The notes beneath the pieces were generated by a model, which saw only the letters and a list, made by a program, of their open reading frames with translations, was not told where the DNA came from and did not search any database. The translations under genes and the position numbers were made by a program. A DNA stretch of 64,000 nt from an uncultured Anaerolineales bacterium (GTDB lineage Bacteria; Planctomycetota; Phycisphaerae; FEN-1346), in the NCBI GenBank assembly GCA_964397995.1, contig CAYNLG010000010.1:156-64155 (forward strand), written 5' to 3'. Positions 12,513 to 27,002 of this stretch are shown one piece after another (positions within the stretch are counted from its first letter, which is position 1; every line of letters starts with the position of its first letter).

Positions 12513-12995
12513 ATGAAACGCACGGTGACGAAAGGCTTCACGCTGGTCGAAATCCTGATCGTCGTGATCATCCTCGGCATTCTCGCGGCGATCGTGATCC
12601 CGCAGTTTACCGAGGCCTCGAGCGAGGCCCGGGTCAGCAACCTCATGACCAACCTTCAGACGATCCGCAGCCAGCTCCTGCTCTACAAGACCCAGCACCT
12701 CGAAGACTACCCGGATGACTTCGCGGACCAGATGACGCAGTACACGGACGTCAACGGCAACACCAACGCGACCCCCGACTCCGACTATCCGTACGGCCCG
12801 TATCTGCAGTCCGTGCCGGCCAACCCGATCTCGGGCAGCAACGTGGTGCGCGAGGTGACCGGTGCCAGCACGACCTTCTCGGCCCCGGAGGCCGACGCCG
12901 GTTGGTGGTTCAACAGCGACACCGGCGAGTTCCGCGCCGACCTCACCGACACGCACACGACGACTGACGGCAACACCCAGTTGAACGAACTGTAA
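12513..12995 (+). CDS. major pilin / GspG-like pseudopilin
   Basis: KG|FTLVEILIVVIILGILAAIVIP class III signal; GPYL motif; AAGGAG SD. Confidence 0.92.
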   Translation: MKRTVTKGFTLVEILIVVIILGILAAIVIPQFTEASSEARVSNLMTNLQTIRSQLLLYKTQHLEDYPDDFADQMTQYTDVNGNTNATPDSDYPYGPYLQSVPANPISGSNVVREVTGASTTFSAPEADAGWWFNSDTGEFRADLTDTHTTTDGNTQLNEL

Positions 12996-13240: not shown

Positions 13241-13531
13241 GTGTCCGAACGCTACCTGAAACTCATCGCCCAAGGACTGATCCTCACCGTCATCATGCTC
13301 GGGCTCATCGCGGCCGCCCTGTGGTTGCGGCCCGGCCCCGTCGAGACCGCCGCCCAGGCCCGCACCATGTCCATCGCCAGCGAAGGCGGTCTCCAGGACC
13401 GCGGCAAACAGCGGCTGGAGATGATCGACGAACTGAAGGCGATCAACGAGAACCTGGCTGAGCTTCGCAAGGGCCTCGAGAACGGAACCTACAAGGTCCG
13501 CATCGAGGACCCTGAGAAGGCCAAGAAGTGA
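13241..13531 (+). CDS. small membrane-anchored coiled-coil hypothetical protein
   Basis: AGGAGG SD, GTG start, N-terminal TM helix. Confidence 0.7.
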   Translation: MSERYLKLIAQGLILTVIMLGLIAAALWLRPGPVETAAQARTMSIASEGGLQDRGKQRLEMIDELKAINENLAELRKGLENGTYKVRIEDPEKAKK

Positions 13532-13545
13532 TCCGGAGGCCGACC

Positions 13546-14073
13546 ATGCCCGCCATCACCCAACGTCGGCTGGCGCCCCCGCGCGGGTTTACGCTGGTCG
13601 AACTGATCATCGTCGTCCTGGTGCTGGCGATTGCGGCCGCCATCGTCGTTCCGGCCATCGGGACGGCGGCGGACGTCCAGGTCGTCAGTGCCGCACGCGT
13701 TCTGGCCTCCGACCTCGAGACCACCCGCAGCCTGGCTCTGACCACCCAGCAGCCGCACACGCTCGTCTTCTCGACCGATCGCGGCGCCTACAAAGTCGTG
13801 GTCGACTACGGGGGCGAACCGTACGCGAGCGTTGACGCGGTCGAACACCCCGTCCGCGCGGGCCGGGCCTACGAGACCACCGTCTCCGAGCAGCAGGGCA
13901 TGCGGTCGGTGGCCGTGACGAACGTCGACTTCGGCGGCGACGCGTACGTGACGTTCGATGCCCAGGGCGAACCGTTCGACTCCGGCAACGTGACGCTGCA
14001 GGCGGGAGACGTCCAGATGATCGTCTCGGTCGAGAGCCTGACGGGCATCGTGAACGTGACGCGGATCGACTGA
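13546..14073 (+). CDS. GspH/FimT-like minor (pseudo)pilin
   Basis: RG|FTLVELIIVVLVLAI signal; TFDAQGEP motif. Confidence 0.88.
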   Translation: MPAITQRRLAPPRGFTLVELIIVVLVLAIAAAIVVPAIGTAADVQVVSAARVLASDLETTRSLALTTQQPHTLVFSTDRGAYKVVVDYGGEPYASVDAVEHPVRAGRAYETTVSEQQGMRSVAVTNVDFGGDAYVTFDAQGEPFDSGNVTLQAGDVQMIVSVESLTGIVNVTRID

Positions 14074-14087: not shown

Positions 14088-15179
14088 ATGGCACACAGGC
14101 TGCCCATCGGACTCGACATCGGTACGACGGCTGTCCGGCTGATGCAGTTGGCCGGGTCGGGGCGACGGCTTCGCGTGCTGGACGCGGCCAAGGCCGCCAT
14201 CCCGCCCTACGCGGAGCGCGAGGCCGGTCCGCGCCGGGAGGCGGTGGTCGAGTGCGTGCGTGCGCTCCTCAAGGACCGGCACTTCCGCGGCCATGACGTG
14301 GTCCTCGCGCTCGACCCGGCCCAGGTCGCGATCCGCAGCATCCGCTTGCCCCCCACCCCCGAGGAAGAGCTGCCGACGGCCGTCAAGTGGGAGGTGCAGA
14401 ACAAGTTCCCGTTCGATATGGCCACGGCGGTGGTCCAGTACCTGCCGGCCGGACACGTCCGCCAGGGCGACCGGACGCTCCAGGAAGTCCTCGTCCTTGC
14501 CGTGCCGCGCCAGGACGTCGAGGCCCGCGTCCACATGGCCGCCGAAGCCGGCCTGCACGTGGTGAGCGTGGACGCGTCGCCGTGCGCCTTGTGGCGGACG
14601 TTCGAGCGGTACCGCCGCCGCGAAGAGGACCGGGACGTCGTGACGGCCATCGTCGACCTCGGGGCGCGGACGCAAGTCGTCCTGGCTCGGGGCCGCGACA
14701 TCGTGTTCGTCAAGACGATCCCGATCGGCGGCACACTGTTGAATCGCGCGGTGGCCGAGCGGCTCGAGTTGGCGGCGACCGAAGCCCAGGCGTTGCGGCG
14801 GCGGCTGGCGAAACGCCTCGACCGGGACGATCCCCAGGAGCCCGTCCGCCGGGCCGTGGCGGACGCCGTGCGGCCACACCTGGAGGACCTTGCCGCCGAG
14901 ATCGGCCTGTGTCTTCGGTACCACAGCGTGTCGTTCGGCGGGCCGCTGCCCGGTGAGATCATCTTCAGCGGCGGCGAGGCCCACGACCCCACGGTGCCGC
15001 AGACGTTGGCCGCCCGCCTGGACGTTCAGCCCACGGTGGCGGAGCCGCTGGCTGGGATCGAAGTGGGACGCGTCGGCCCGGGCGTGGACCGCCGCGGGGC
15101 GACGAGCGAGTGGACGGTGGCTCTGGGCTTGTCGCTGAAAGGCCTGAGCCTGGCCGAACCCCTCCAGGCGTGTGCCTGA
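14088..15179 (+). CDS. pilM: type IV pilus assembly protein PilM
   Basis: actin-like IGLDIG, VDLGA, IPIGG, FSGG and ALGLSL motifs. Confidence 0.88.
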   Translation: MAHRLPIGLDIGTTAVRLMQLAGSGRRLRVLDAAKAAIPPYAEREAGPRREAVVECVRALLKDRHFRGHDVVLALDPAQVAIRSIRLPPTPEEELPTAVKWEVQNKFPFDMATAVVQYLPAGHVRQGDRTLQEVLVLAVPRQDVEARVHMAAEAGLHVVSVDASPCALWRTFERYRRREEDRDVVTAIVDLGARTQVVLARGRDIVFVKTIPIGGTLLNRAVAERLELAATEAQALRRRLAKRLDRDDPQEPVRRAVADAVRPHLEDLAAEIGLCLRYHSVSFGGPLPGEIIFSGGEAHDPTVPQTLAARLDVQPTVAEPLAGIEVGRVGPGVDRRGATSEWTVALGLSLKGLSLAEPLQACA

Positions 15180-15205
15180 GAGGGCATCAGGGAGAGGGAA
15201 TCAGC

Positions 15206-15802
15206 GTGCGTGAGCTGGAGTTCCTGCCTCCGGACTACCTCCGGGCGCGGTTCGCCCGTCGCCTGGGATTCCTGCGGTCCTGGCTCCTGGTGGCCATGGG
15301 GTTGGCGATGGTCCTGTGGAGCCTCCAGATGGGCCTGTGCGTGCGCGACGCCGAGGCGAAGCTGCGTGGTATCCGGGGACTGGACTCGACCGCGTCTCAG
15401 GACGTGGTGAAAGTGGAACGCCTGCAGGCCGAGGTCCGCCGGTTCAGTGCCCGCCTGGCGGCCCTTCGCGACGCTGCCGACGGTGTCGCCACGAGCGATG
15501 TGCTGGCCGACGTGGTCGAACGCCTGTCGGACGCCACAGGGCTGACCCGATTGACGGTGACTCGGCACGAGGAGGGCCCGGGCGCCGTGGTGCGCCTCTG
15601 GGGCTGGGGCAGCGGCCACGCTGACGTGGGTCGCGTTCTGGGGGCTATCGAGGCCTCCCCTTATCTCGTCGGTGCGGTCCTGCGCGAGTCGCATGCCGAC
15701 ACGGCCGGGGGCGGCCCTCGGCGGGTCTTCCTGATAGAAGCCACCGCGATGCCGGCGGCAGATGCGGTGGCCCGAAAAGGCGAGCCGGAGGAGGTCCCGT
15801 GA
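15206..15802 (+). CDS. PilN-like protein
   Basis: N-terminal LEFLP (INLLP-like), TM, coiled coil; follows pilM. Confidence 0.7.
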   Translation: MRELEFLPPDYLRARFARRLGFLRSWLLVAMGLAMVLWSLQMGLCVRDAEAKLRGIRGLDSTASQDVVKVERLQAEVRRFSARLAALRDAADGVATSDVLADVVERLSDATGLTRLTVTRHEEGPGAVVRLWGWGSGHADVGRVLGAIEASPYLVGAVLRESHADTAGGGPRRVFLIEATAMPAADAVARKGEPEEVP

Positions 15803-16434
15803 CCACTTCGCCCGGCACCCCGGCGCCGCCTCCGCCTGCCCCCAAGCGGCCCCCGCTTGCGATCGACCGGCACCAACTCCTGATCCTGGTCCTGGGCTCG
15901 ATCATGGCCGGCTCGTTCGTCCTGCTTGTCTTCTGGCCCAAGCAGCGCCGGCTGCACGTGCTGGGCTCGGCCGTGAAGCAGGAGCGGGAGCGTGTCGAGC
16001 GGAAGCTGATGACGAGCCAGACGGGCCTGTACATGACGGCCCGGATTCCCGAGTTGCGCAAGGCCCAGGGGACGCTCGACCGGCGCCTCCCGGCCGACCC
16101 GGAGGTGGCAGTCCTGCTCCAGGCCGTGTCGGCCTGTTTCGAGGCGGAGCCCGCCGTACGCTACGACGTCGAGCAGGCGGCCTCCCGCACCGATGGCCCG
16201 GCGCCGGCCGTGCCCCTCCGCCTTCGTGCGGCCGGGCCGTTCCCGGCGGTGTACCGGTGCCTGGCCTCGGTCGAACGGCTGGAGCGGCTGTGCCGATTTC
16301 GCCGAACACAAGTCCAGAGAGAACCCGACGGTACAGTGACGGCCGAAGCGGAGGTTCTGGCCTACTTCCTGCCCGATGGCGGGGCGGAGGAGACCGGACC
16401 GCGCGCCGACGCCGCGGAAGGCCCCGGCACGTGA
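15799..16434 (+). CDS. PilO-like protein
   Basis: TM, coiled coil, RLPADPEV, GPFPAVYRCL; position after PilN-like gene. Confidence 0.7.
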   Translation: MTTSPGTPAPPPPAPKRPPLAIDRHQLLILVLGSIMAGSFVLLVFWPKQRRLHVLGSAVKQERERVERKLMTSQTGLYMTARIPELRKAQGTLDRRLPADPEVAVLLQAVSACFEAEPAVRYDVEQAASRTDGPAPAVPLRLRAAGPFPAVYRCLASVERLERLCRFRRTQVQREPDGTVTAEAEVLAYFLPDGGAEETGPRADAAEGPGT

Positions 16435-17078
16435 CGCGTTCGACGGATGGCACGGAGACGACGCCCCGCGCCCCCGGACCCATCAGCGGGGTCGTGGCAT
16501 GGCTGGTAAGCCGGCCGCGCGGCTGGTGGGCGGGGGGACATGGCCGGCCGGTCCGCGTCACCGTAACGGTGGTGTTGATCCTGGCAGCGCTGGGGGCATG
16601 GGCCTTGGCCTTGGTGCAACCGTGGCTGCGGCAGCGGGCAGACGCCGCCGTGGTGCCGTTTCCGGCGCTGCGGTTTGACGCGCGTCGCCTGTGCGAGCCC
16701 ACGGACGACCTGATGGACGCTCTGGCCCCGCCGGCGGCCGCCGCCAAGGCGATCCGCCGCGATCCGTTCGCCACGGCGCAGGCCGGCCCACCGCCATGTT
16801 GGCCGGCCGAGGCGGGGGTGGCCTCCTGTGCGGTTGCCGACCGGGCTGGCGACCCGTGCGGCGAGGCGGCCACCACGACCTTGGCCGTCATGGAGCGGGC
16901 TCGCGGGTTGAGGCTGGACATGACCGTCGAGACCGACGCGGGCGGACGTTGGGCGGTCATCGACGGACGACGCTACCGGGAAGGTGACGAGGTGGCCGGC
17001 ATGGCCATTCTCGAGATACGAACGGGGAGGGTGACCCTGCGGCAATCAGGCGTGACCTGTTTGTTGCGGGTCGAATAG
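16431..17078 (+). CDS. PilP/GspB-like membrane protein
   Basis: TM, RRDPF motif, C-terminal AVIDGRRYREGDEV beta domain; coupled GTGA start. Confidence 0.55.
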   Translation: MTRSTDGTETTPRAPGPISGVVAWLVSRPRGWWAGGHGRPVRVTVTVVLILAALGAWALALVQPWLRQRADAAVVPFPALRFDARRLCEPTDDLMDALAPPAAAAKAIRRDPFATAQAGPPPCWPAEAGVASCAVADRAGDPCGEAATTTLAVMERARGLRLDMTVETDAGGRWAVIDGRRYREGDEVAGMAILEIRTGRVTLRQSGVTCLLRVE

Positions 17079-17089: not shown

Positions 17090-19264
17090 ATGAAAGCCTG
17101 CCACTGCGCTGACCCCTACCGGCGCGGCGTCGTGCTGCTCGCCGTCGCGGGAGCGCTTCTGCTGATGTTGACCCCCCCGGCCCGCGCGGCCGGTGCGGCC
17201 GGAGGTGCGGGACTGTTCGACCCCGGCGGCGGAGATGACCCCCTGGAGGTCGATGCCCCGGAGCAGGACGCCGCCGAGGCGCTTGAGGTCCGGCCAGAGG
17301 ACACGGCGCCGCCTCTCACGACCGTCCTCTCCGACGAGGGGGGCATCGAGATACACGCCAAGAACGAGGACCTGGTCAAGGTGCTGGAGCTGATCTCCCG
17401 GCTCCAGGAGATCAACATCGTGGCCAGCAAGCAGGTCACCGGCAAGGTGACGGCCGACCTGTACAACGTGACGCTGGCGGAGGCCCTGGACGCCCTGGCC
17501 CGGGCGAACAACCTCCGCTGGGTCCGCGAGGGCGACTTCATTTACGTCCACACGCCGGAGGAGTTGAAACAGCTCCGGATGGACGAGGACCGGCTTGTCA
17601 CCGAGGTCTATCACCTGAACTACCTGACGGCCGAGGACGCGATCAAGCTGATCCAACCGGCCCTGTCGGAATTGGCCGTGGTGGCCGAGACGTCGCCCGC
17701 CGAAAGCGGCATCGCCTCCGGGGGCGAGGAGGTCGGCGGCAACAGTTACGGACTGGCCGACGCCGTTGTCGTCCGTGACTTCCCCGAGAACCACGAGAAG
17801 GTGGCGGCCATCCTCGAGAAGATGGACCGGCGGCCGCGCCAGGTCCTGATCGAGGCGACCATCCTCCAGGTCGAGTTGACCGACAACACCAGCCTCGGCA
17901 TCAATTTCAACACGCTGGCCGGTGTCAATTTTCGCGACCTCCAGGCCCTGGCGCCGCCGGCGCCGGCTTCGCCGTCAACCGACCCCACCACCGTGATGGG
18001 CGACATCTCCGAGACCGCCCGGGCCAGCCTGCAGCCCTGGGGCACCACGTACACGCGCGGCTTCGCCACCCCCGGTGACGGCCTGAACATCGGCATCATG
18101 ACCAACAACGTCTCGGTCTTCATCCAGGCCGTCGAAGAAGTCACCGACGCCAACGTCATCAGCAACCCGAAGGTGCTCGCCCTGAACAAGCAGCGGGCCG
18201 AGGTTATCGTCGGCGACCGGCTCGGGTACCGGACCACGCAGGTGACCGAGACGACCGCGATCGAAACGGTCGAGTTCCTCGACACGGGCACACAGTTAAT
18301 CTTCAGGCCGTACATCAGCGACGACGGCTACATCCGCATGGAGGTCCACCCCGAGGTGTCCTCCGCGGTCCTGACGGGGCCCGCCGACAATCCGCTGCCC
18401 CAGGAGACGACGGCCGAGGTCACCTGCAACGTCATGGTCCGCGACGGCGAGACGATCGTTATCGGCGGCTTGTTTGACGAGAACGTCACCTCCACGAAGA
18501 CCGGCGTACCCTTCCTGCACAACCTGCCACTCGTCGGCCCGCTGTTCCGGTCACACGGCGAAGACACCGAACGGCGCGAGTACATCGTCCTGCTGACCCC
18601 CCATATCATCCAGGAGGACCAGGCCTACGCGATGGGGCGTCAGCTCAAGGACGACATCAGCCGCCGCGGCTTCGGTCTGCGGGAAGGCTTCTCCGTGTTC
18701 ACTCGCGAGCGGATGACGGTCGGCTACCTCCAGGAGGCCGAGGCCGCCTGGGAACGGTACCAGGAGACGGGCAAGCGGGGGGACCTGGACGGGGCGTGGT
18801 GGAACGCAAACCTGGCCCTGAACGTGGCCCCGAACAACATGGCGGCGCTGCGGCTCAAGGACCGCCTGATCATCGAGCGAACCGGCAAGGCCGAACTGCC
18901 GCGTCACTGGACCCTCTGGGACAGCATCCAACTCCACATGAACTCCGTCGGCCTGCTGGGCCATACGCATCCCGCGGTCGAGTGGCGCACGGGCGGGTGC
19001 GACGTGGTCATCGGGCGGCCGAGGCCCTGTGACGAAGACTCCCTGCCCAGGCACGGAATGCCCGGCGAGCCGTTGCCGGAGCACGGCCTGGCCCCCGCCT
19101 TCGAAAAGCCCGCTACCATCGAGACCGAGCCCCAACCGCCCGCGGCGCCGGACGCCGAAGCGACCGGGGAGGCCGTGGGCGAGCCGTTCGACGGCGGCGC
19201 CGACGCACCCGGCCGGTACATTGGCGAGATCGAAGCGGAGGAGGTGACCGATGTGGTGGACTAA
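17090..19264 (+). CDS. secretin (PilQ/GspD family) with C-terminal extension
   Basis: signal peptide, STN/N domains, QVLIEATI, VRDGETIVIGGL, GVPFLHNLPLVGPLF and LLTPHII. Confidence 0.92.
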   Translation: MKACHCADPYRRGVVLLAVAGALLLMLTPPARAAGAAGGAGLFDPGGGDDPLEVDAPEQDAAEALEVRPEDTAPPLTTVLSDEGGIEIHAKNEDLVKVLELISRLQEINIVASKQVTGKVTADLYNVTLAEALDALARANNLRWVREGDFIYVHTPEELKQLRMDEDRLVTEVYHLNYLTAEDAIKLIQPALSELAVVAETSPAESGIASGGEEVGGNSYGLADAVVVRDFPENHEKVAAILEKMDRRPRQVLIEATILQVELTDNTSLGINFNTLAGVNFRDLQALAPPAPASPSTDPTTVMGDISETARASLQPWGTTYTRGFATPGDGLNIGIMTNNVSVFIQAVEEVTDANVISNPKVLALNKQRAEVIVGDRLGYRTTQVTETTAIETVEFLDTGTQLIFRPYISDDGYIRMEVHPEVSSAVLTGPADNPLPQETTAEVTCNVMVRDGETIVIGGLFDENVTSTKTGVPFLHNLPLVGPLFRSHGEDTERREYIVLLTPHIIQEDQAYAMGRQLKDDISRRGFGLREGFSVFTRERMTVGYLQEAEAAWERYQETGKRGDLDGAWWNANLALNVAPNNMAALRLKDRLIIERTGKAELPRHWTLWDSIQLHMNSVGLLGHTHPAVEWRTGGCDVVIGRPRPCDEDSLPRHGMPGEPLPEHGLAPAFEKPATIETEPQPPAAPDAEATGEAVGEPFDGGADAPGRYIGEIEAEEVTDVVD

Positions 19265-20375
19265 GGGTCTGCTCCTTGTCGCGTGCGCGGCCTGTCTGGC
19301 CGCGGCGGCCGGCTGTACCTCCTTCATGGACGAGAAACGTGCCGAGGCCAACGAGCGCTGGCAGAAGAACCGGGCGGAGATCGTCGTCCGCTTGGCGGAA
19401 GGGTGCTTCAGGCGGGGTGAGATGAAGAAGGCCCGGCAGCATATCGCGGAGGCCCTCAACGAGCAGTTGGCCTATGCCCCCTTGTACGTATTGGCTGCAA
19501 GGCTGACGGCCGAGGACGGCGACCTGGAGCGGGCCCGCGAGTATGCCCAGACGGCCCGGTCCGTCGATCCCGAATACGCCGAGGGGCACTACGTTCTCGG
19601 GACCGTCGAGCAGACGCTGGGACACCGCGACAAGGCCCTTGCCGGCTACCGCGAGGCCGCGGCCCTGGATCCGAAGCGGGCGGCCTATGCCCTGGCCGTC
19701 TCCGAACTCCTCGTCTCCGAGGGCCGACGTGATGAGGCCGTGGCATTTCTGGAGGAGGCGGTCGGGCGTCTCCCCGGCCGGCCTGACCTCCATGCCGGCT
19801 ACGGCGACGTGCTGGCTCTGACCGGGCGGCATCGCGAGGCGGCCGCGGCGTACCGGACGGCACGGCGTCTCGATCCGAACGACCCGGCGTACGTGGCCGG
19901 TCTGGCGACGGTCCTCTACTTCAGCGGCGACTACGCCGGGGCCGAGACCGAACTGGCCGCCCTCTCACGGCTCGGGGACGCCGATAACGCCGCGTGGCTT
20001 TCCCAGATGCGCGGCGACTGTGCCCTGGCGCGGCGTCGGCCGGAGGATGCCCGTGCCCACTACGAACAGGCCCTCGAGGTCGACCCCGGTTGTCTGGGCG
20101 CGACGTTGGCCTTGGCCCACCTCGACGTGGCGGGCGGCCGGAGTGACCAGGCCGTTGCCCGGTTGGAGACGGTCCTGGACCGCGAACCGGCCCAGGGCGA
20201 TGCCAACGCCCTCATGGGCTATGCCCTGGTAAGTGCGGGCCGCGCGGCCGAGGCCGTACCGCACCTGCGGCGGGCCCTGGGCGATCCGACCTTCGAGCAG
20301 CGGGCGGTGGCCGAGGCGCTGCTTGCCCGCGCTCAGGCCGCGGCGCCGCCGGATGCCGGAGGCGACGCCCCATGA
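19251..20375 (+). CDS. TPR-repeat lipoprotein (pilotin-like)
   Basis: AAGC lipobox and multiple TPR repeats; overlaps the secretin stop. Confidence 0.8.
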   Translation: MWWTKGLLLVACAACLAAAAGCTSFMDEKRAEANERWQKNRAEIVVRLAEGCFRRGEMKKARQHIAEALNEQLAYAPLYVLAARLTAEDGDLERAREYAQTARSVDPEYAEGHYVLGTVEQTLGHRDKALAGYREAAALDPKRAAYALAVSELLVSEGRRDEAVAFLEEAVGRLPGRPDLHAGYGDVLALTGRHREAAAAYRTARRLDPNDPAYVAGLATVLYFSGDYAGAETELAALSRLGDADNAAWLSQMRGDCALARRRPEDARAHYEQALEVDPGCLGATLALAHLDVAGGRSDQAVARLETVLDREPAQGDANALMGYALVSAGRAAEAVPHLRRALGDPTFEQRAVAEALLARAQAAAPPDAGGDAP

Positions 20376-21817
20376 TCGAACTGCGTCGCGCCGCCGTCGT
20401 CATCCTGCTGTTTCTCGGGGTGGGGGCGGGCCTGCACCTCCTGATGGACCCGTTCGCCGAGGGGAGCCAGCCGCCCCTCGTCAAGACGATGGTGCTGGCG
20501 TGCGGCCTGACGCTGTGTGTGCTGGGGATCATCGGCGGGGTGCTGCTGGCGCGGCTGCAGAAGGAGCGGATCGACTCGGTCGCGGTCCATCTGAACACGA
20601 TGGTCGATCGCGGTCGCATGGGCCTGATGATCAGCGACAACGAGTCCGACGCCCTCGGCCGCCTCGGGCACGCCGTCAACCGCTATCTCCGCTTCGTCAA
20701 GGACGAGGTCGAGCAGTCCCGGATGGCCGTCAAGGAACGCCAGATCAAGATGAAGGTGCTCCAGGCTGAGAAGCGGCACATCGAGGCCGTCATCAAGGCC
20801 ATCAGCGACGGCGTCATCGTGACCGACGCGTTCGGCGACCTGGTTTTGGCGAATGCCGCGGCCGAGGGGATTTTCGACTTTACGTTCGACGCGGCCGAGA
20901 GGCGCCCCGTCGAGGAGTTCATCGAGGACGCGGAGTTCCTGGCCCTGCTGACCGGGATGCGCGACGAGGGGGTCCACTCCCCCCACCGCACCGCCGAGTG
21001 GACCTCCGCCGCCGGCGACCGGCCGCGCACCTACCGCGTCATCCTGAGTGCCGTCCTCGAGGGCCGTGCCCGCGACCGGATCAGCGGCGTGGTGGCCGTC
21101 CTGCACGACGTGACGCGCGAGAAGGAGATCGCGCGCATGAAGAGCGACTTCGTCTCGAACGTGTCGCACGAGTTGAAGGCCCCGCTGGCAAGCATTCGGG
21201 CCTACGTCGAGATGCTCCAGGACGGCGAGGTCGAGAACGAAGCCGAAGCCCGCGAATACCTGAGCACCATCGCCGGCGAGACCGACCGCCTGAACCGCCT
21301 CATCGAGAACATCCTCAATCTCAGCCGCCTGGAGTCCGGCCTCGTCCCGGTCAATAAGGCGGACTTGGCGGTGACCGAGGTGCTGAGCGACGTGGCGGAC
21401 GTGATCTCGCCGCAGGCGTCGCGCAAGGGGATCGACCTCGCGGTTGACCTGGCGCCCGTCTTCTTCCGCGTGCACGCCGACCGCGACATGCTGTACCAGT
21501 CGGTGCTGAATGTGGCCTCCAACGCCGTCAAGTACACCCCGGAGGGCGGACGCATCCGCGTCGCCACCTACCTGAAGGACGGGGCCGTGGTGGTCGAGGT
21601 TGCCGACACGGGCCACGGCATCCCGCCCGAAGAGGTCGAGAAGGTCTTCGAGAAGTTCTACCGTGCCCGTCACAGCGGCCAGGCCGCCCCGGGGACCGGG
21701 CTGGGCCTGCCTCTGGTCAAGCACGTTATCGAACACATCCACGGTGGCTGGGTGGCCGTGGAGAGCCAGGTGGACCGGGGTACGACGTTCCGCCTCGGGT
21801 TGCCGGCCGTGCGATAG
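20372..21817 (+). CDS. membrane PAS sensor histidine kinase
   Basis: 2 TM, PAS, SHELKAPL H-box, NAVKY, DTGHGI and GTGLGL. Confidence 0.93.
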   Translation: MIELRRAAVVILLFLGVGAGLHLLMDPFAEGSQPPLVKTMVLACGLTLCVLGIIGGVLLARLQKERIDSVAVHLNTMVDRGRMGLMISDNESDALGRLGHAVNRYLRFVKDEVEQSRMAVKERQIKMKVLQAEKRHIEAVIKAISDGVIVTDAFGDLVLANAAAEGIFDFTFDAAERRPVEEFIEDAEFLALLTGMRDEGVHSPHRTAEWTSAAGDRPRTYRVILSAVLEGRARDRISGVVAVLHDVTREKEIARMKSDFVSNVSHELKAPLASIRAYVEMLQDGEVENEAEAREYLSTIAGETDRLNRLIENILNLSRLESGLVPVNKADLAVTEVLSDVADVISPQASRKGIDLAVDLAPVFFRVHADRDMLYQSVLNVASNAVKYTPEGGRIRVATYLKDGAVVVEVADTGHGIPPEEVEKVFEKFYRARHSGQAAPGTGLGLPLVKHVIEHIHGGWVAVESQVDRGTTFRLGLPAVR

Positions 21818-21830
21818 GGAAGGAGCGGAC

Positions 21831-22205
21831 ATGCCCCGCATTCTGGTGGCCGACGACGAGGCGCCGATCGCCCGCGTCGTCGCCAAGAAACTCGAGAACG
21901 CCGGCTACGACGTCGAGGTTGCCCGCGACGGCCAGGAGGCCTATGAACGGGCCGTCGCGTCGCCGCCAGATTTCCTGGTTACCGACCTCCAGATGCCGGG
22001 CCTCAGCGGCTTGGAGGTCTGTGCCCGGTTGGCTGCCGAACTCGAGACGCCCGTGCCGGCGGTCCTGTTGACCGCCAAGGGGTTCGAGGTCGACCCAAGC
22101 GTGGTCGAACGTCTGCCCATACGGCGGATCATGACGAAGCCGTTCAGCCCGCGGGAACTCCTGGCGGTCGTGCAGGCGGCCTTGGCCCAGACCGCTTCGA
22201 CGTGA
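21831..22205 (+). CDS. stand-alone response regulator receiver
   Basis: ADDE, TDLQMPG, LTA, KPF; no output domain. Confidence 0.92.
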   Translation: MPRILVADDEAPIARVVAKKLENAGYDVEVARDGQEAYERAVASPPDFLVTDLQMPGLSGLEVCARLAAELETPVPAVLLTAKGFEVDPSVVERLPIRRIMTKPFSPRELLAVVQAALAQTAST

Positions 22206-22230: not shown

Positions 22231-23733
22231 ATGACCGGTCAACTCAGCCGTCCCCTACCGGTGACCGAACGGCAGGCGCTGGTGACGCTGGCGGGCCTGA
22301 TCCGCGACCGTGCCCGGGTGCCGCTGGTACTGGTGCGCGGCGACGAGGTGATCGCCCAGCCGGCCGGGGGGGCGCCGCCGCACGTGCTCGCGCTCGCCGG
22401 AGCGGCGTGGGCGTCCGAAGAGGAGCAGGTCGAGACCGGCGATGGCCGCGTCGCGGCCGCCTGGCCGGTCCGGCTCCGCGGCCGCCTCGTCCTGGTCGGC
22501 GCCGCCGAGGTGACGGCCTCTGAGGCGGACGTCGGCCGCCAGCTCCTCGTGGCGGTGGCAGCGGCGGTGCAGGCCCAGGTCGATGGCCTCGATGCCCGCG
22601 GCGAGGCGGAGGCGCTCTCGGAGGCCCTGACCCAGAACTTCGAGGAACTCACCCTCCTCCACAACCTCGGCGAAGTCCTCACGGTCACCCAGTCTGCCCC
22701 GGAACTCCTTCGCCGCGCCTGCCGCGAGCTCGTCGAGACCGTCGACGCCGTCGGCGTGGCCGCCTACCTGCCCCCCGGCGACGAGGAGCCCCGGCGCATC
22801 GTGGCGGTCGGCGCCTTGCCGATCGCAAAGCCCGAGCTGCCGGCCCTTGTCGAGCGGCTGCTCGGGGACCTCGGCCACGAACGGACCGTGGTCATCAACA
22901 ACCACTGTGCGGACGACCCCGCCTTGGAGGCCATGGCCCCTGGCGTGGAGCGTGTCGTCCTGGCGCCGCTGCCGATGGGCCGGCGCCGGCGAGGCGCCTT
23001 GGTGGCGATCAACCGAAACGGCCTCGAGTTCGGCAGCCCGGACGCCAAGCTCGTCCGGTCGGTCGCCAACTCCGTCGGCATGTTCCTGGAAAACCACCGG
23101 CTCTACACTGACCTGCAGGCCCTGATGCTCGAACTGGTCCGGGCCCTTGTCTCGAGCATCGACGCGAAGGACCCATACACGTGCGGCCACAGCGAGCGCG
23201 TCGCCCTGCTCAGCCGCGAGACCGCGCGGCTCCTGGGCCTGACGGACCGGGAGGTCGAGTGGGCCTACCTGGCGGGCCTGCTGCACGATATTGGCAAGAT
23301 CGGCACGCCCGAGGCCATCCTCCAGAAACCGGCCCGTCTGACCGACGCCGAGTATGACGTCATCAAGCGTCACCCGGCCGTGGGCTACCGCATCCTGAAG
23401 GGCGTCAAGCGGCTCGAGCCGATCCGGGACGCCGTCCGGCACCACCACGAGCGGATGGACGGGACCGGCTATCCGGACGGGCTGCGCGGCGAGGAGATCC
23501 CGCTACTGGCGCGGATCACCGGCCTTGCCGACGCCTTCGACGCGATGACCAGCAACCGCCCGTACCGGCCGAGGCTCCCGATGGAGAAGGTGCGGTGCGA
23601 GATTGAGCGCAACGTGGGCCGCCAGTTCGATGCCCGCGCCGCCGACGCCCTCCTGGCGCTCGACGTCGAACGGCTCATGGGTCAGGTCACCAGCCAGCCA
23701 GCCCAGGTCGACGCCGACTTGGTCCGTGCGTGA
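22231..23733 (+). CDS. GAF + HD-GYP cyclic-di-GMP phosphodiesterase
   Basis: GHSERV, LHDIGK, HHHERMDGTGYPDGL and RPYR intact. Confidence 0.92.
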   Translation: MTGQLSRPLPVTERQALVTLAGLIRDRARVPLVLVRGDEVIAQPAGGAPPHVLALAGAAWASEEEQVETGDGRVAAAWPVRLRGRLVLVGAAEVTASEADVGRQLLVAVAAAVQAQVDGLDARGEAEALSEALTQNFEELTLLHNLGEVLTVTQSAPELLRRACRELVETVDAVGVAAYLPPGDEEPRRIVAVGALPIAKPELPALVERLLGDLGHERTVVINNHCADDPALEAMAPGVERVVLAPLPMGRRRRGALVAINRNGLEFGSPDAKLVRSVANSVGMFLENHRLYTDLQALMLELVRALVSSIDAKDPYTCGHSERVALLSRETARLLGLTDREVEWAYLAGLLHDIGKIGTPEAILQKPARLTDAEYDVIKRHPAVGYRILKGVKRLEPIRDAVRHHHERMDGTGYPDGLRGEEIPLLARITGLADAFDAMTSNRPYRPRLPMEKVRCEIERNVGRQFDARAADALLALDVERLMGQVTSQPAQVDADLVRA

Positions 23734-23741
23734 GAGGTGCC

Positions 23742-24077
23742 ATGCCGACGGTCGCGGACGTTTTCGGCAACCTGACGGTCCTCACCGTGGACCCGGCCCT
23801 CGACCGGCGGGAGAGCGAGGCCTTTCGGGCCCGCGTCACCGACCAGATCCAGGCCGGCCGCCGCTGGTTCGTCCTGGACGGAAGCCACTGCACACGGCTG
23901 GACAGCCGGGGCCTCGAGGACCTCCTCTGGCTCCAGGAACAGGTGGAGGCCGTGGGCGGGGTGGTCAAGATCGCCGGCCTCCGTGGCACCTGCTGCACCA
24001 TCTTCCGGCTCGTGCGGTTCGACCGGAAGTTCGAGGTCTTCGACGGCGTTCCGGAAGCCGTGAGCCAGTTCGCCTGA
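23742..24077 (+). CDS. STAS domain anti-sigma-factor antagonist
   Basis: VLDGSHCTRLDSRGL with the SpoIIAA-type phosphoacceptor Ser. Confidence 0.85.
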   Translation: MPTVADVFGNLTVLTVDPALDRRESEAFRARVTDQIQAGRRWFVLDGSHCTRLDSRGLEDLLWLQEQVEAVGGVVKIAGLRGTCCTIFRLVRFDRKFEVFDGVPEAVSQFA

Positions 24078-24087
24078 GGGTCCTGGT

Positions 24088-25836
24088 ATGCCGCCCACGA
24101 CATCCAGCTCGGCCCGCGTCCGGCTGGGCGACCTGCTGGTGGCCCACGAGGTCATCACCCCGGAGCAACTGCAGCACGCGCTCGGCATCCAGCGCGACGG
24201 CCAGCAGGAACGGCTCCTCGGCGAAATCCTCATCGACCTCGACTACGCCACCGACGACCAGGTGCTGGCGGCCGTGGCCGAGGCGTGCGGTGTGCCGTTC
24301 GCACGGCTGACCCCGGTGCTGGTCGATCCGGCCGTCCGTAGCGTTCTGCCGGAGTCCTTCATCCAAAAGCACGGCGTTCTTCCGCTCTTCAAGATTCGCG
24401 ACACCCTGACGGTAGCCGTCTCCGAGCCCGCCAATGTCTTCCTGGTGGACGAGATCGCTCGTGTGGCTGGCACGAACGTCCAAGTGGCGGCCGCCACGGG
24501 AGACAACATCTACGAGATGCTCGAGCAGACCCGGACCGACGAGGCGCCCCGCGCCACCCAAGGCGAAGCCGAGTTCGCCGTCACCGACGAACTACTCCAG
24601 CCCGAGGACTACGATTCGGCCTACGGCAACTGGCCACCCGTCAAGGTCGCCCGCCTGTTGCTGCGCGAAGCCGTCCGGAGCGGGGCCTCGGCCATTCACC
24701 TGGAACCCGAGGAGAAGGTTCTCCGTGTCCGCTTCCGCATCGACGGCGTGCTGCACGTCGTCATGCGCCCTCCGATGCGCGTCGCAACCGGCCTGACGGC
24801 GGCCCTTCGCGAGCTCATGGGTGTCGATGCCGACGAGATGCCCTGGGGCCGGCCGATCGACGCCCCCGTCCGGGTCCAGGAGCATGCCGTCCAGCTCCAC
24901 ATGCTTTCCCTCCATGGGGCGTACGGGCCGCGCACCGTCATCCGCTTGGTCCGCGAGGACGAGGCCCATCGCAACCTCGAGAAGCTCGGCGCCGACTTCA
25001 AGCTCCTCGACGCCTATCGGCACCTCGTCCACGCCACGCGCGGGCTCGTGGTCGTGGCCGGTCCCCGCGAGGCGGGCACCACGACCACCCTCTACGGGAC
25101 GGTGCTCGACCTGGATCCGGCGCGGCTGAACGTGTGTACGTGCGAGGCGGCGATCGCCTTCCCGCTCTCCGGCGTGAATCAGTTCTCGCCGGCAACCCTC
25201 GGCGCGCCGAACCCCGCGGCGGCGGTGGAGGCCATTCTGGCCCAGCGTCCGGACGTGCTCATGCTTGACGGGACCGCCGATCCCGGCACTGGCGCAATGC
25301 TGGCCCGTGCGGTCCGGGACGGGTGCTTCGTCCTCATGCATGTGCCCGCCGCCGACGCCGCCGAAGCCATGGCGGGCCTGCGGCACCTCCTGCCGCCGGA
25401 CGCTGTGGCGCGCCATCTGAGGGGCGTGCTGGCCCAGCGCCTCGTCCGCACGGTGTGCCCGGACTGCCAGAGCAGCTACGAGCCGTCGGGACGCCAGAAG
25501 AGCCGCCTTGTCGAAACCTTCGGCGGGGACGGCCGCTTCGTCAAGGGCCGCGGCTGCCCCGCCTGCCGCCGCACCGGCTTCCGCGGACGCATCGGCCTGT
25601 TTGAGCTTGTGCCCAACACGGGCAACGTGGCGGCGGCGCTGTCAGGTGGCGCCGACGAGGACATGCTGCGCGACGCCCTGGCGCACGACGGATGCCCGAC
25701 ACTCTGGCAGGACGGGGTGAACAAGGTTCGCGCCGGCATCACGTCGCCGGACGAGGTCATCGAGGTGTTGGCCGCCTGCCCGCGACCGGGGCAGGGCGGT
25801 TCGGATGAATCAGAGCCGGCCGGTTGGCCGCGCTAG
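24088..25836 (+). CDS. MshEN-domain PilB/GspE homolog with degenerate ATPase motifs
   Basis: RLGDLL..QLQHALGIQ, IHLEP, RFRIDGVL, AQRLVR, CxxC..CxxC; Walker A GPREAGTT. Confidence 0.88.
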   Translation: MPPTTSSSARVRLGDLLVAHEVITPEQLQHALGIQRDGQQERLLGEILIDLDYATDDQVLAAVAEACGVPFARLTPVLVDPAVRSVLPESFIQKHGVLPLFKIRDTLTVAVSEPANVFLVDEIARVAGTNVQVAAATGDNIYEMLEQTRTDEAPRATQGEAEFAVTDELLQPEDYDSAYGNWPPVKVARLLLREAVRSGASAIHLEPEEKVLRVRFRIDGVLHVVMRPPMRVATGLTAALRELMGVDADEMPWGRPIDAPVRVQEHAVQLHMLSLHGAYGPRTVIRLVREDEAHRNLEKLGADFKLLDAYRHLVHATRGLVVVAGPREAGTTTTLYGTVLDLDPARLNVCTCEAAIAFPLSGVNQFSPATLGAPNPAAAVEAILAQRPDVLMLDGTADPGTGAMLARAVRDGCFVLMHVPAADAAEAMAGLRHLLPPDAVARHLRGVLAQRLVRTVCPDCQSSYEPSGRQKSRLVETFGGDGRFVKGRGCPACRRTGFRGRIGLFELVPNTGNVAAALSGGADEDMLRDALAHDGCPTLWQDGVNKVRAGITSPDEVIEVLAACPRPGQGGSDESEPAGWPR

Positions 25837-26612: not shown

Positions 26613-26690
26613 GGCGTTCCTTTCCGGGCCGACCTTCGGCCGGCTCTGGGCCACTGTCATCGCGTTCTGCGCGACCGGTCGCGGCGCGGC

Positions 26691-27002
26691 TCAGGCGTCG
26701 ATGCCGGTCACGCGAACCGTCAGGTAATGCTGCCTGTGCCCGATATGCCGCCGCGAGTTCTTGCGGCGACGCACCTGGACCACCTCCAGCTTCGGGCCCT
26801 TGGCCGGGCCAAGCACCTCGGCGGTGACGGTCGCCCCGTCGAGGTTCGGCTTGCCGACGCGGACACCGTCGTCGTCGCCCACCAGCAGCACCCGATCAAA
26901 CGTCACCGTGCTGCCCGGCTCGCCGCCGCGCAGATCGACCTGAAGGGTCTGGCCCTCTTCGACCCGCATCTGGCGCCCGCTGTCGTCGATAATCGCGTAC
27001 AT
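26691..27002 (-). CDS. rplU: 50S ribosomal protein L21
   Basis: MYAII..GRQMRV and GHRQ motifs. Confidence 0.96.
   Translation of the reverse strand: MYAIIDDSGRQMRVEEGQTLQVDLRGGEPGSTVTFDRVLLVGDDDGVRVGKPNLDGATVTAEVLGPAKGPKLEVVQVRRRKNSRRHIGHRQHYLTVRVTGIDA

What the first reader, a model, noticed from the sequence alone, without database searches (positions are those of the whole stretch)
24088..25836. Catalytically dead PilB/GspE paralog retaining the MshEN motif and Zn site
Seen, against the family consensus: Walker A GPREAGTTTTLY (GPTGSGKTTTLY; Lys lost), Asp box TCEAAIAF (TVEDPVEY), Walker B RPDVLMLDGTAD (DPDVIMVGEIRD; Glu lost), His box DGCFVLMHVP (TGHLVLSTLH). In contrast, the ORF is full length and keeps RFRIDG, AQRLVR, both CxxC pairs and the N-terminal RLGDLLVAHEVITPEQLQHALGIQ, which matches the MshEN consensus except for one Gly-to-Glu change. 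Inference: loss confined to catalytic residues suggests a selected pseudo-enzyme, such as a c-di-GMP-gated inhibitor or scaffold in mixed hexamers with an active PilB.
Basis: partly seen in the sequence, partly recalled or inferred. Interest (0 to 1): 0.8.

Follow-up and report, generated by a model that had tools for sequence, protein, structure and literature searches.

The report
Conserved dead PilB pilus ATPase
A pilus-assembly motor gene has lost every residue needed to burn ATP yet has been kept intact across a whole bacterial family, so it probably now works as a regulator or scaffold rather than as a motor.

Summary
ORF 24088-25836(+) encodes a 582-aa PilB/GspE-family protein (Pfam T2SSE 190 bits; fold TM 0.84 to Geobacter PilB). 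Its Walker A Lys, Mg-binding Asp-box Glu, catalytic Glu, both His-box His and one Arg finger are replaced; the Zn site and N-terminal domain are kept.

This is not decay. Among 87 proteins at 52-100% identity, none has the Lys or the catalytic Glu. Orthologs occur in 21 of 21 other genomes of the window's family (13 genera in all, window's included). dN/dS is 0.19-0.29, like neighbouring genes.

It is the positional ortholog of an active ATPase. The same operon (pilin, PilMNOP-like genes, secretin, TPR, HK, REC, HD-GYP, STAS, PilB) occurs across Planctomycetota with intact motifs (68 of 68 loci keep the Lys).

After the loss, constraint shifted from the ATPase core to the N-terminal domain. 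A complex prediction places the STAS neighbour, by its conserved Asp-Ser face, on that domain (ipSAE 0.71, best control 0.00).

The c-di-GMP claim is only half supported. MshEN motif I is near consensus. Motif II lacks its Arg and Gln, as it also does in the active relatives.

Best reading: a selected, non-motor PilB acting as a STAS-linked regulatory or scaffold subunit. This is a new variant of a known kind.

The parts
24088..25836 (+). Pseudo-PilB: 582-aa PilB/GspE-family protein without catalytic residues
24121..24192 (+). MshEN motif I (aa 12-35), near consensus, with Gly10 changed to Glu in this copy
   Evidence: Consensus from PMC5013675. Ortholog counts: R 82/87, G14 83/87, Gly10 72/87, Q35 85/87.
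24214..24285 (+). MshEN motif II remnant (aa 43-66), with no initial Arg/Lys in register and no final Gln
   Evidence: position 1 is Leu in 85/87; the last residue is A50/G21/S11.
24286..24537 (+). ND1/MshEN_C (GSPII) subdomain (aa 67-150), the predicted STAS docking surface
   Evidence: Pfam PF05157 covers aa 68-148. Interface residues 70-108, 132 and 134 come.
25060..25095 (+). Walker A remnant GPREAGTTTTLY (the Lys position is T331)
   Evidence: 0 of 87 have Lys.
25138..25161 (+). Asp-box remnant TCEAAIAF (the Mg-binding Glu position is A357)
   Evidence: 0 of 87 have Glu at 357.
25246..25281 (+). Walker B remnant RPDVLMLDGTAD (the catalytic Glu position is G395)
   Evidence: 0 of 87 have Glu at 395.
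25318..25347 (+). His-box remnant DGCFVLMHVP
   Evidence: His at 413 in 2/87 and at 420 in 1/87.
25456..25566 (+). Tetracysteine Zn site (C457, C460, C490, C493), retained
   Evidence: Cys in 84-85 of 87. Two of the misses at each site are gaps in partial sequences; one row has Ser at 460 and one has Leu at 490.
23730..24077 (+). STAS-domain protein (115 aa) with conserved Asp58-Ser59, the predicted partner of pseudo-PilB
   Evidence: Pfam STAS, alignment A2 and the complex prediction.
22231..23733 (+). GAF-HD-GYP protein, with the HD and GYP motifs present
   Evidence: The sequence was read (LLHDIGK, DGTGYP).
21840..22205 (+). Single-domain response regulator (REC)
   Evidence: REC at aa 81-191 of ORF 21600-22205.
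20372..21817 (+). PAS-HisKA-HATPase histidine kinase
19251..20375 (+). TPR protein; its N-terminus reads like a lipoprotein signal (AAAGC). Reading it as pilotin-like is an inference.
17090..19264 (+). Secretin (STN, Secretin_N, Secretin)
16470..17078 (+). PilP-like or T2SSB-like protein. The upstream part of ORF 15762-17078 looks out of frame.
15799..16434 (+). PilO-like protein (weak match)
   Evidence: PilO E=1e-3, below the cut-off.
15110..15802 (+). PilN-like membrane protein, assigned by position. No Pfam hit, but conserved in relatives.
14088..15179 (+). PilM
13528..14073 (+). GspH-like pseudopilin
12513..12995 (+). Type IV pilin / GspG-like major pilin

Best explanation
The gene encodes a selected pseudo-ATPase. 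It descends from the assembly ATPase that closes a conserved Planctomycetota operon (pilin, pseudopilin, PilM, PilN/O/P-like, secretin, TPR, HK, REC, GAF-HD-GYP, STAS, PilB).

Shown:
- On the stem of one Phycisphaerae family, the ATP site was dismantled: Walker A Lys, Asp-box Glu, catalytic Glu, His box, one Arg finger and the ERRLPQDGR loop.
- The PilB fold, the Zn site and especially the N-terminal ND0/ND1 (MshEN-like) domain stayed under purifying selection.

Inferred:
- The protein no longer drives pilin polymerisation.
- It keeps the non-motor job of its ancestor. It docks through its N-terminal domain on the operon's STAS protein, and probably on the PilM/platform. In this way it passes the state of the HK-REC / HD-GYP / STAS signalling module to the pilus machine.
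- In effect it would be a permanent nucleotide-free PilB.
- Motor work would be left to one of the several intact PilB/GspE paralogs in the genome.
- Phosphorylation or another change at STAS Ser59, which lies in the predicted interface, would switch the contact.
For: (1) Loss is complete and shared. Among 87 proteins at 52-100% identity, 0 have the Walker A Lys, 0 have the catalytic Glu and 0 have Glu357; His413 is present in 2 and His420 in 1. The next 33 hits are canonical at all of these positions.

(2) Distribution. Orthologs at 55-60% identity occur in 21 of 21 other genomes of the window's family (13 genera in all, the window's included). In the other 179 genomes sampled from the class, the best match is 39% or lower.

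(3) Synteny. STAS lies directly upstream in 16 of 17 family loci; the 17th starts inside the gene. The same operon with canonical motifs is found in 5 of 5 loci of the sister family. It also recurs across 63 further Planctomycetota loci: STAS detected in 54 of 63 and HD-GYP in 53 of 63, with the Lys kept in 68 of 68 non-family loci.

(4) Tree. The family clade is monophyletic (SH-aLRT 100). It is nested in the syntenic clade (98) on a stem of about 1.3 changes per site, against about 0.26 for its neighbours.

(5) Selection. dN/dS is 0.19-0.29 at dS 0.3-0.9, within the range of PilM, HK, HD-GYP and STAS in the same genome pairs. Active PilBs show 0.02-0.16, usually the lowest value in the operon.

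(6) Shift of constraint. Mean pairwise identity in the family is 0.72 for MshEN_N and 0.63 for the CTD core. In active clades it is 0.59-0.64 and 0.77-0.86.

(7) Complex prediction. For STAS with pseudo-PilB, ipSAE was 0.71, 0.70 and 0.72, with a best control of 0.00. That mark was reached by 58 of 80 solved complexes and 2 of 110 mismatched pairs. The three runs agreed in 100% of contacts, and partner pLDDT was 83-84. The interface is PilB 70-108, 132 and 134 with STAS 55-66 (including D58 and S59) and 87-96. My own alignments were used, so the calibration holds only roughly.

(8) Precedents. M. xanthus PilB signals in its nucleotide-free form (PMC5544727, abstract read). X. citri PilZ regulates PilB through ND1 (PMC8389850, passages read).

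(9) The genome holds several intact GspE/PilB paralogs.
Against: - No biochemical data exist, and every member of the clade comes from a metagenome-assembled genome.
- The predicted STAS interface is not more conserved than the rest of its domains (permutation p 0.24 for ND1 and 0.52 for STAS).
- The complex score is a model's confidence, not a measurement.
- No kinase or phosphatase for STAS lies in the operon. An RsbW-like kinase and four PP2C genes lie elsewhere in the genome.
- No platform protein (GspF/PilC) lies in the window, so it is unknown which machine the protein docks on.
- dN/dS near 0.2-0.3 is higher than in active PilBs, so part of the protein is under relaxed constraint.
- Arg286 is kept in 79 of 87 and an Arg is fixed at P-loop position 327 in 79 of 87. 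Some phosphate or nucleotide contact therefore cannot be excluded.
Confidence: 0.6

Rival explanations
1. The protein is a c-di-GMP-gated inhibitor that co-assembles with an active PilB into mixed hexamers. Local c-di-GMP would be set by the neighbouring HD-GYP phosphodiesterase.
For: - An intact-looking GAF-HD-GYP gene lies two genes upstream and is co-conserved in 16 of 17 family loci and 53 of 63 other loci.
- MshEN motif I is near consensus.
- The NCBIfam c-di-GMP motif model NF053729 scores 47.6 against a cut-off of 38.
- The N-terminal four-helix region is the most conserved part of the protein (0.72).
- Interactions between different pilus ATPases have been reported (PMC11656802, section 11 read).
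Against: - Motif II has Leu where the Arg should be in 85 of 87, and A/G/S where the Gln should be. The spacer is 7 residues, not 5. No member has two motif matches, even with the published relaxed pattern.
- The same two positions differ in the non-binding PilF GSPII-A domain. There, restoring the consensus did not restore binding, so motif reading is unreliable in either direction.
- These motif II departures are also present in the active relatives, so they are not part of the pseudo-enzyme change.
- The closest intact paralogs are only about 34% identical. No test of co-assembly was run.
Confidence: 0.15
2. The protein is a static structural ring. A homo-oligomer would be a permanent cytoplasmic scaffold or plug needed for assembly or stability of the PilM-to-secretin complex, with no signalling role.
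For: - The fold, the Zn site and 95 core positions are conserved together with the active relatives.
- All structural genes of the operon are retained and under selection.
Against: - The strongest constraint lies on the N-terminal regulatory domain, not on the ring-forming N2D/CTD.
- The gene is always paired with STAS and a two-component system.
- STAS is predicted to bind it.
Confidence: 0.15
3. The protein is a nucleotide-binding switch. It would still bind ATP or another nucleotide through non-canonical residues (the fixed Arg327 in the P-loop, Arg286, Thr332) and act as a slow or non-hydrolysing switch.
For: Arg327 is present in 79 of 87, Thr/Ser332 in 87 of 87, Arg286 in 79 of 87 and Glu353 in 87 of 87.
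Against: Seven of the eight nucleotide or catalysis residues named for G. metallireducens PilB are replaced, and the ERRLPQDGR loop is lost. The Lys position holds Val, Ala, Leu, Thr, Ile or Gly.
Confidence: 0.07
4. The gene is slowly decaying and has no function (a relic).
For: All catalytic motifs are lost, and dN/dS is higher than in active orthologs.
Against: - The frame is full length and open in all 17 loci and in 21 of 21 family genomes. Two of those are cut by contig ends.
- dN/dS is 0.19-0.29, not near 1.
- Replacement residues are themselves fixed: Asp394 in 87 of 87 and Arg327 in 79 of 87.
- There are 19 positions conserved in the family but variable in active relatives.
Confidence: 0.03

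Closest known systems
[quoted passage not shown] Geobacter metallireducens PilB, PDB 5TSG/5TSH)
   Same: The domain order is the same: MshEN-like ND0/ND1, N2D, CTD and a tetracysteine Zn site. Sequence match is E=1.6e-76. Fold TM-score is 0.83-0.84 over N2D+CTD. The operon context includes PilM, secretin and pilins.
   Different: Walker A Lys, Asp-box Glu357, catalytic Glu395, Thr411, His413, His420 and Arg271 are all replaced. Scores fall far below the NCBIfam equivalog cut-offs (279.6 against 675.65).
Vibrio cholerae MshE N-terminal c-di-GMP receptor domain (MshEN; Wang et al. 2016, PMC5013675)
   Same: An N-terminal four-helix region with an RLGxxLVxx(G)VIxxxxLxxxLxxQ motif I. The NCBIfam motif model scores above its cut-off.
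   Different: Motif II lacks the Arg and the Gln. The spacer is 7 residues, not 5. Gly10 of motif I is Glu in this copy. Binding was not tested.
[quoted passage not shown]
   Same: It departs from the consensus at the first residue of motif II and at the terminal Gln.
   Different: In PilF GSPII-A both terminal Gln residues are changed, whereas here motif I keeps its Gln. PilF itself is an active ATPase.
Xanthomonas citri PilB-PilZ-FimX regulatory complex (PMC8389850)
   Same: A small regulator binds the ND1 subdomain of PilB and links the ATPase to second-messenger signalling. Here STAS is predicted to sit on ND1.
   Different: The partner here is a STAS protein, not PilZ. The PilB here is catalytically dead. 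A search for papers holding 'STAS domain', 'PilB' and 'type IV pil' together found none.
Myxococcus xanthus PilB as a signalling protein for exopolysaccharide production (PMC5544727)
   Same: This PilB has an output independent of ATP hydrolysis, and the nucleotide-free form is the signalling state (abstract read).
   Different: In M. xanthus a single active protein does both jobs. Here evolution has fixed a version that can do only the non-motor job.
Second extension ATPase TfpB of Acinetobacter baylyi (review PMC11656802, section 11)
   Same: One pilus system has more than one PilB-type protein with distinct roles. The NCBIfam TfpB model matches weakly (242.8 against a cut-off of 850).
   Different: TfpB is described as an ATPase that supports extension. 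The protein here lacks the catalytic residues and is not a TfpB ortholog by score.
Non-hydrolysing ATPase-like accessories of type IV filament machines: archaeal ArlH/FlaH and TadZ of Tad pili
   Same: Each is an ATPase-fold protein without normal catalysis that serves as a regulator or localiser of a type IV filament machine.
   Different: Those proteins belong to the KaiC/RecA-like and ParA/MinD-like families. They are not derived from the machine's own PilB/GspE motor.

Membership tests
PilB/GspE secretion ATPase family (Pfam T2SSE PF00437) | Domain model match above the curated cut-off | tested here: met
   190.4 bits against a cut-off of 24.9, covering aa 186-558.
PilB/GspE secretion ATPase family | N2D+CTD fold of the solved family members | tested here: met
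   The AF2 model has mean pLDDT 75.6. Foldseek TMt is 0.83-0.84 to 5tsh/5tsg.
PilB/GspE secretion ATPase family | Walker A GxxxxGK[ST] | tested here: not met
   The sequence is GPREAGTT. Lys is present in 0 of 87 orthologs.
PilB/GspE secretion ATPase family | Asp-box Glu that coordinates Mg (E357 in G. metallireducens) | tested here: not met
   The residue is A357. Glu is present in 0 of 87.
PilB/GspE secretion ATPase family | Atypical Walker B followed by the catalytic Glu (E395) | tested here: not met
   The residues are D394-G395. Glu is present in 0 of 87.
PilB/GspE secretion ATPase family | His box (H413, H420) | tested here: not met
   The residues are C413 and P420. His is present in 2 of 87 and 1 of 87.
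PilB/GspE secretion ATPase family | Two arginine fingers (R271, R286) | tested here: inconclusive
   R286 is kept in 79 of 87. R271 is His in 71 of 87 and Arg in 9 of 87.
PilB/GspE clade | Tetracysteine Zn motif | tested here: met
   C457, C460, C490 and C493 are kept in 84-85 of 87.
NCBIfam equivalogs: type IV-A PilB (TIGR02538) and GspE (TIGR02533) | Score above the equivalog cut-off | tested here: not met
   279.6 against 675.65, and 270.1 against 630.25.
MshEN c-di-GMP receptor domain | Motif I: RLGxx(L/V/I)(L/V/I)xxG(L/V/I)(L/V/I)xxxxLxxxLxxQ | tested here: inconclusive
   All positions fit except Gly10, which is Glu in this copy. Among P0001-P0082, 39 of 82 match the strict pattern and 55 of 82 the relaxed pattern.
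MshEN c-di-GMP receptor domain | Second 24-residue motif after a 5-residue spacer | tested here: not met
   There is no second match, even to the relaxed pattern, in any of the 82. Position 1 is Leu in 85 of 87, the last residue is A/G/S, and the spacer is 7 residues.
MshEN c-di-GMP receptor domain | NCBIfam NF053729 domain model above its cut-off | tested here: met
   47.6 bits against 38, covering aa 12-65.
MshEN c-di-GMP receptor domain | Measured c-di-GMP binding | not testable with these tools
   This needs ITC or DRaCALA.
Pseudoenzyme (a conserved, catalytically dead homolog of an enzyme) | Clear homology to active enzymes together with loss of catalytic residues | tested here: met
Pseudoenzyme | Retention under purifying selection across species | tested here: met
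   Present in 21 of 21 family genomes. dN/dS is 0.19-0.29.
Pseudoenzyme | Demonstrated lack of catalytic activity | not testable with these tools
   This needs an ATPase assay.
STAS partner-switching module (SpoIIAA/RsbV type; features recalled from memory) | STAS domain with a conserved phosphorylatable Ser after an Asp | tested here: met
   Pfam STAS scores 41.3 bits. D58 is invariant and S59 is in at least 90% of 22 sequences.
STAS partner-switching module | Cognate Ser kinase (RsbW/SpoIIAB type) and PP2C phosphatase encoded alongside | tested here: not met
   Neither is in the operon. One RsbW-like gene and four SpoIIE/PP2C genes lie on other contigs.

The most novel reading that the evidence does not exclude
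The PilB at the end of this Planctomycetota-wide operon is first of all the output subunit of a new kind of partner switch. The STAS protein would use the same Asp-Ser face that in sigma-factor switches binds the anti-sigma kinase, but here it docks on the ND1 domain of the pilus ATPase. The HK-REC and HD-GYP signals would thereby decide whether the machine is engaged. ATP hydrolysis by this subunit would be dispensable. That would explain why it has been lost independently in at least three lineages of the clade: the window's family with its sister group, the P0124/P0126/P0128/P0130/P0138 group, and P0139. The window's protein would then be a natural 'apo-locked' PilB.
Probability: 0.3. Interest if true: 0.8.

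Novelty: new variant of a known kind. Interest (0 to 1): 0.63.

Why it matters

Here a dead copy has been kept for a long time, in the genomic place of an active one. That is a natural experiment separating the motor role of PilB from its docking and signalling roles. So far these roles have been separated only with engineered Walker mutants, for example in M. xanthus.

The finding also exposes a pilus operon conserved across the phylum, in which a two-component system, an HD-GYP enzyme and a STAS protein are wired to the ATPase. It gives a testable STAS-ND1 contact. The full-text searches I ran found no paper describing a natural dead PilB/GspE or a STAS-PilB pair. The library does not hold most subscription journals.

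Tried and rejected
**ORF 25824-27050(+).** This 408-aa ORF has the length of a PilC, so I considered it as the platform protein. I rejected it. It has no Pfam hit, its composition is that of an antisense frame, and real genes (a weak TPR match and rplU) lie on the minus strand there.

**Platform protein.** No GspF/PilC lies in the window. Four loci elsewhere in the genome hold one, and I could not assign any of them to this operon.

**Expression.** No RNA holder was listed by the look-up of sequencing runs.

**Second degenerate lineage.** I searched with P0128 in 401 genomes of the phylum. It found only matches at 50% identity or lower, so its genomic context stays unknown.

**Interface conservation.** The predicted STAS and ND1 interface residues are not more conserved than the rest of their domains (p 0.24 and 0.52).

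**Position 257.** Its mapping in the MAFFT alignment falls in a variable loop and I do not rely on it.

**Numbering.** Positions printed there are 9 lower than the protein's own numbering, because hmmalign trimmed the first 9 residues.

**Placement of the own-genome ORF C6_+_188.** It sits next to the family clade on a branch of 2.76 and may reflect long-branch attraction.

**Rows left out of trees.**
- One search used 46 rows. It kept 21 of the 63 loci L030-L092 (every third) and omitted L027, L028, L052 and L074.
- One search used 47 rows that I chose by hand.

**dN/dS limits.** Several pairs from active clades were saturated (negative values or dS above 2) and are not used. Codon-model tests such as RELAX or branch-site tests could not be run, because no such program was available.

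**Supplementary tables.** Supplements were closed. I did not see the supplementary tables of PMC5013675 (mutant Kd values) or PMC8389850 (PilB-PilZ interface residues). They could bear on the c-di-GMP question and on whether STAS and PilZ use the same ND1 surface.

Full report
**1. What is there**

The ORF at 24088-25836(+) is open and encodes 582 residues.
- Pfam finds T2SSE (190 bits, aa 186-558) and MshEN (58 bits, aa 68-148).
- NCBIfam matches the PilB and GspE equivalogs over their full length, but far below their cut-offs (279.6 against 675.65). A short c-di-GMP motif model passes (47.6 against 38, aa 12-65).
- The closest solved relative is Geobacter metallireducens PilB (E=1.6e-76).
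- An AlphaFold2 model built on 38 orthologs (mean pLDDT 75.6) superposes on that structure with a TM-score of 0.83-0.84.

**2. The ATP site is dismantled**

From residue 306 to about 430 the alignment to 5TSG has no gaps, so numbering there coincides with native G. metallireducens numbering. I used the residues named by McCallum et al. 2017 (PMC5424180, passages read).

| G. metallireducens residue | Role | Residue here |
|---|---|---|
| Walker A Lys | phosphate binding | T331 |
| T327 | named site residue | R327 |
| E357 | Mg-binding Asp-box Glu | A357 |
| E395 | catalytic Glu | G395 |
| T411 | named site residue | D411 |
| H413 | His box | C413 |
| H420 | His box | P420 |
| R271 | Arg finger | H271 |
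| R286 | Arg finger | R286 (kept) |

- The conserved N2D loop ERRLPQDGR is also gone.
- The four Zn-binding cysteines, RxRxDG and AQRLVR remain.

**3. The loss is old, shared and selected**

*Protein search.* A word-indexed search returned 86 further proteins at 52-62% identity, then a step down to 35-39%.
- Among the 87 (window included): Lys331 in 0, Glu395 in 0, Glu357 in 0, His413 in 2, His420 in 1, Arg286 in 79, and the cysteines in 84-85. Two of the misses at each cysteine are gaps in partial sequences; one row has Ser at 460 and one has Leu at 490.
- The next 33 proteins are canonical at every one of these sites.
- Replacement residues are themselves fixed: Asp394 in 87 of 87 and Arg327 in 79 of 87.

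*Genome sample.* In a sample of 201 genomes of the class, orthologs at 55-60% identity were found in 21 of 21 other genomes of the window's family. The family spans 13 genera, the window's included, and two of the copies are cut by contig ends. In the remaining 179 genomes the best match was 39% or lower.

*dN/dS.* Pairwise NG86 values within the family are 0.19-0.29 at dS 0.3-0.9. In the same genome pairs the neighbours give:
- PilM 0.11-0.29
- HK 0.10-0.23
- HD-GYP 0.20-0.39
- STAS 0.05-0.36

In clades where the protein is intact, PilB gives 0.02-0.16 and is usually the lowest in the operon.

**4. It is the positional ortholog of an active ATPase**

The window carries one long plus-strand operon:
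- pilin (12513-12995)
- a small membrane protein
- a GspH-like pseudopilin
- PilM
- PilN-, PilO- and PilP-like genes
- secretin
- a TPR lipoprotein
- PAS-histidine kinase
- REC
- GAF-HD-GYP
- STAS
- the dead PilB

After it come convergent genes.

*Conservation of the order.*
- The order is kept in all 17 family loci taken from species genomes, as far as their contigs reach. STAS is directly upstream in 16 of 17.
- The sister family of the same order has the same operon in 5 of 5 loci. There the last gene has canonical Walker A, Asp box, Walker B-Glu and His box.
- The arrangement recurs in 63 further loci. Their records are titled Pirellulales, Sedimentisphaerales, Anaerohalosphaeraceae, Kuenenia, Gimesia, Blastopirellula, Thermoguttaceae and others. 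STAS was detected in 54 of 63 and HD-GYP in 53 of 63.
- Across all 68 non-family loci the Walker A Lys is kept in 68 and the His box in 68. The Asp-box Glu-Asp is kept in 67, and so is the Gly-Glu of Walker B.

*Tree.* A maximum-likelihood tree (46 rows) puts the family clade as one branch (SH-aLRT 100) inside this syntenic clade (98). Its stem is about 1.3 changes per column, against about 0.26 for neighbouring clades.

**5. Where the constraint went**

| Region | Dead family | Active sister family | Other active loci |
|---|---|---|---|
| N-terminal four-helix part (aa 10-66) | 0.72 | 0.64 | 0.59 |
| ND1 (aa 67-150) | 0.70 | – | – |
| N2D | 0.68 | – | – |
| CTD core (aa 318-440) | 0.63 | 0.86 | 0.77 |

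Values are mean pairwise identities. In the active relatives the order is reversed.

Column by column, comparing 18 family rows with 68 active rows (printed numbering is 9 too low):
- 95 positions are conserved with the same residue in both groups.
- 17 are conserved in both but with different residues.
- 39 are conserved only in the active group. These include the Lys, the Asp box, the His box and the ERRLPQDGR loop.
- 19 are conserved only in the dead family.

**6. The c-di-GMP question**

Wang et al. 2016 (PMC5013675; abstract and passages read) define two 24-residue motifs joined by 5 residues.
- Motif I here fits except that Gly10 is Glu. Across the 87 that position is Gly in 72 and Glu in 3.
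- Motif II (LLGEILIDLDYATDDQVLAAVAEA) has Leu where the stacking Arg should be; an Arg sits one residue earlier. It ends in Ala instead of Gln, and the spacer is 7 residues.
- No member matches the motif twice, even with the paper's relaxed pattern.
- The same two positions are changed in the non-binding GSPII-A domain of T. thermophilus PilF. In that work, restoring the consensus did not restore binding (PMC12002112, section 6 read). Motif reading is therefore weak evidence either way.
- The motif II departures are shared with the active relatives.

I put c-di-GMP binding at roughly 35-40%.

**7. The STAS link**

STAS precedes this PilB across the phylum, and the N-terminal domain is the best-kept part. 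I therefore spent the one complex job on STAS (alignment A2, 22 rows) with the dead PilB (alignment A1, 38 rows).

*Result.*
- ipSAE was 0.71, 0.70 and 0.72, with a best control of 0.00.
- That mark was reached by 58 of 80 solved complexes and 2 of 110 mismatched pairs.
- The runs agreed in 100% of contacts, and partner pLDDT was 83-84.
- My own alignments were used, so these counts hold only roughly.

*Interface.* PilB residues 70-108, 132 and 134 (the ND1 sheet, including invariant P70, D80, L100, F101, R104, T108 and Q132) meet STAS residues 55-66 and 87-96. The STAS side includes invariant D58, L62, E63 and R96, and the nearly invariant S59. From memory, that Asp-Ser pair corresponds to the phosphorylated serine of SpoIIAA/RsbV-type STAS proteins.

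*Against.*
- The interface is not more conserved than the rest of either domain (p 0.24 and 0.52).
- No STAS kinase or phosphatase lies in the operon.
- I know of no solved STAS-GSPII complex. That is recall, not a search of the PDB for complexes.

**8. Recurrence**

Among the best 150 representatives at 50% identity, several other members of the same syntenic clade are degenerate.
- P0123 and P0129 are sister to the family clade. They keep the Lys but lack the catalytic Glu, the His box and the ERRLPQDGR loop.
- P0124, P0126, P0128, P0130 and P0138 form a separate group.
- P0139 stands alone on a long branch.

Their genomic context could not be established. The window's own genome has two further degenerate GspE-like ORFs on other contigs, and at least five intact ones. 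Genomes of both families give 9-16 T2SSE matches each.

**9. Reading**

*Shown:* this is a family-wide, selected, catalytically stripped descendant of the operon's own assembly ATPase, with the constraint moved to the N-terminal domain.

*Inferred:*
- It keeps a docking or signalling role tied to STAS and the two-component / HD-GYP module.
- A paralog supplies motor power.

Precedents are M. xanthus PilB, which signals in its nucleotide-free form (PMC5544727, abstract), and PilZ-FimX acting on PilB ND1 in X. citri (PMC8389850, passages).

**10. Novelty**

Full-text searches found no description of a natural dead PilB/GspE or of a STAS-PilB pair. The term sets were:
- PilB / Walker A / degenerate / pseudo-ATPase
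- catalytically inactive / PilB / paralog
- Planctomycetes / type IV pili / PilB / secretin
- STAS domain / PilB / type IV pil (no paper)
- pseudoenzyme / secretion ATPase / GspE

The library lacks most subscription journals. I rate the finding a new variant of a known kind, with interest about 0.63.

Noticed in passing
window 25824-27050 (+) and 25833-27002 (-): The 408-aa plus-strand ORF right after the finding is an antisense artefact. The real genes there are on the minus strand: a 275-aa protein with a weak TPR match, and ribosomal protein L21 (rplU).
   Followed up: yes
loci L031-L091 (syntenic PilB genes of other Planctomycetota): 47 of 68 catalytically intact syntenic PilBs carry Walker A GPTGSGKN, with Asn in place of the usual Ser/Thr after the Lys. 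This is an unusual but conserved P-loop variant.
   Followed up: no
own genome G000, contigs C6 (ORF C6_+_188) and C42 (ORF C42_+_9068): There are two further GspE-like ORFs with degenerate motifs. One is 534 aa with Walker A GPPRSGRTTTLR. The other is 984 aa with SPKNGGLTTTLH and no Asp, Walker B or His box.
   Followed up: partly
proteins P0123, P0129, P0124, P0126, P0128, P0130, P0138, P0139: These are other degenerate members of the same syntenic PilB clade, in at least two further lineages. P0123 and P0129 are sister to the window's clade and keep the Lys but not the catalytic Glu. P0128 has no match above 50% identity in 401 sampled genomes of the phylum.
   Followed up: partly
loci L065, L081-L083, L086-L090, L092: Operon versions in records titled Thermoguttaceae, Planctomycetaceae, Pirellulaceae, Planctomycetia or Planctomycetota go HK-REC-STAS-PilB. 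No HD-GYP gene was detected in them (10 of 63 loci).
   Followed up: no
window 15762-17078 (+): The N-terminal half of this 438-aa ORF has an Arg/Pro/Gly-rich, out-of-frame look. A PilO-like ORF (15799-16434) overlaps it in another frame. Only the C-terminal ~200 aa (16470-17078, T2SSB-like) seem real.
   Followed up: partly
loci L013, L015, L019, L024, L026, L029: Records titled 'uncultured Anaerolineales' carry this Phycisphaerae-type operon and group with Phycisphaerae records in the tree. The titles are probably wrong taxonomic labels.
   Followed up: no
own genome G000:C1, about 63.5-64.7 kb: A SpoIIE/PP2C phosphatase match (C1:64097-64681) is on the same contig as another GspE-like paralog, matched at C1:48161-49324. 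Their relative positions were not worked out. Any link between partner-switching genes and secretion ATPases here was not examined.
   Followed up: no
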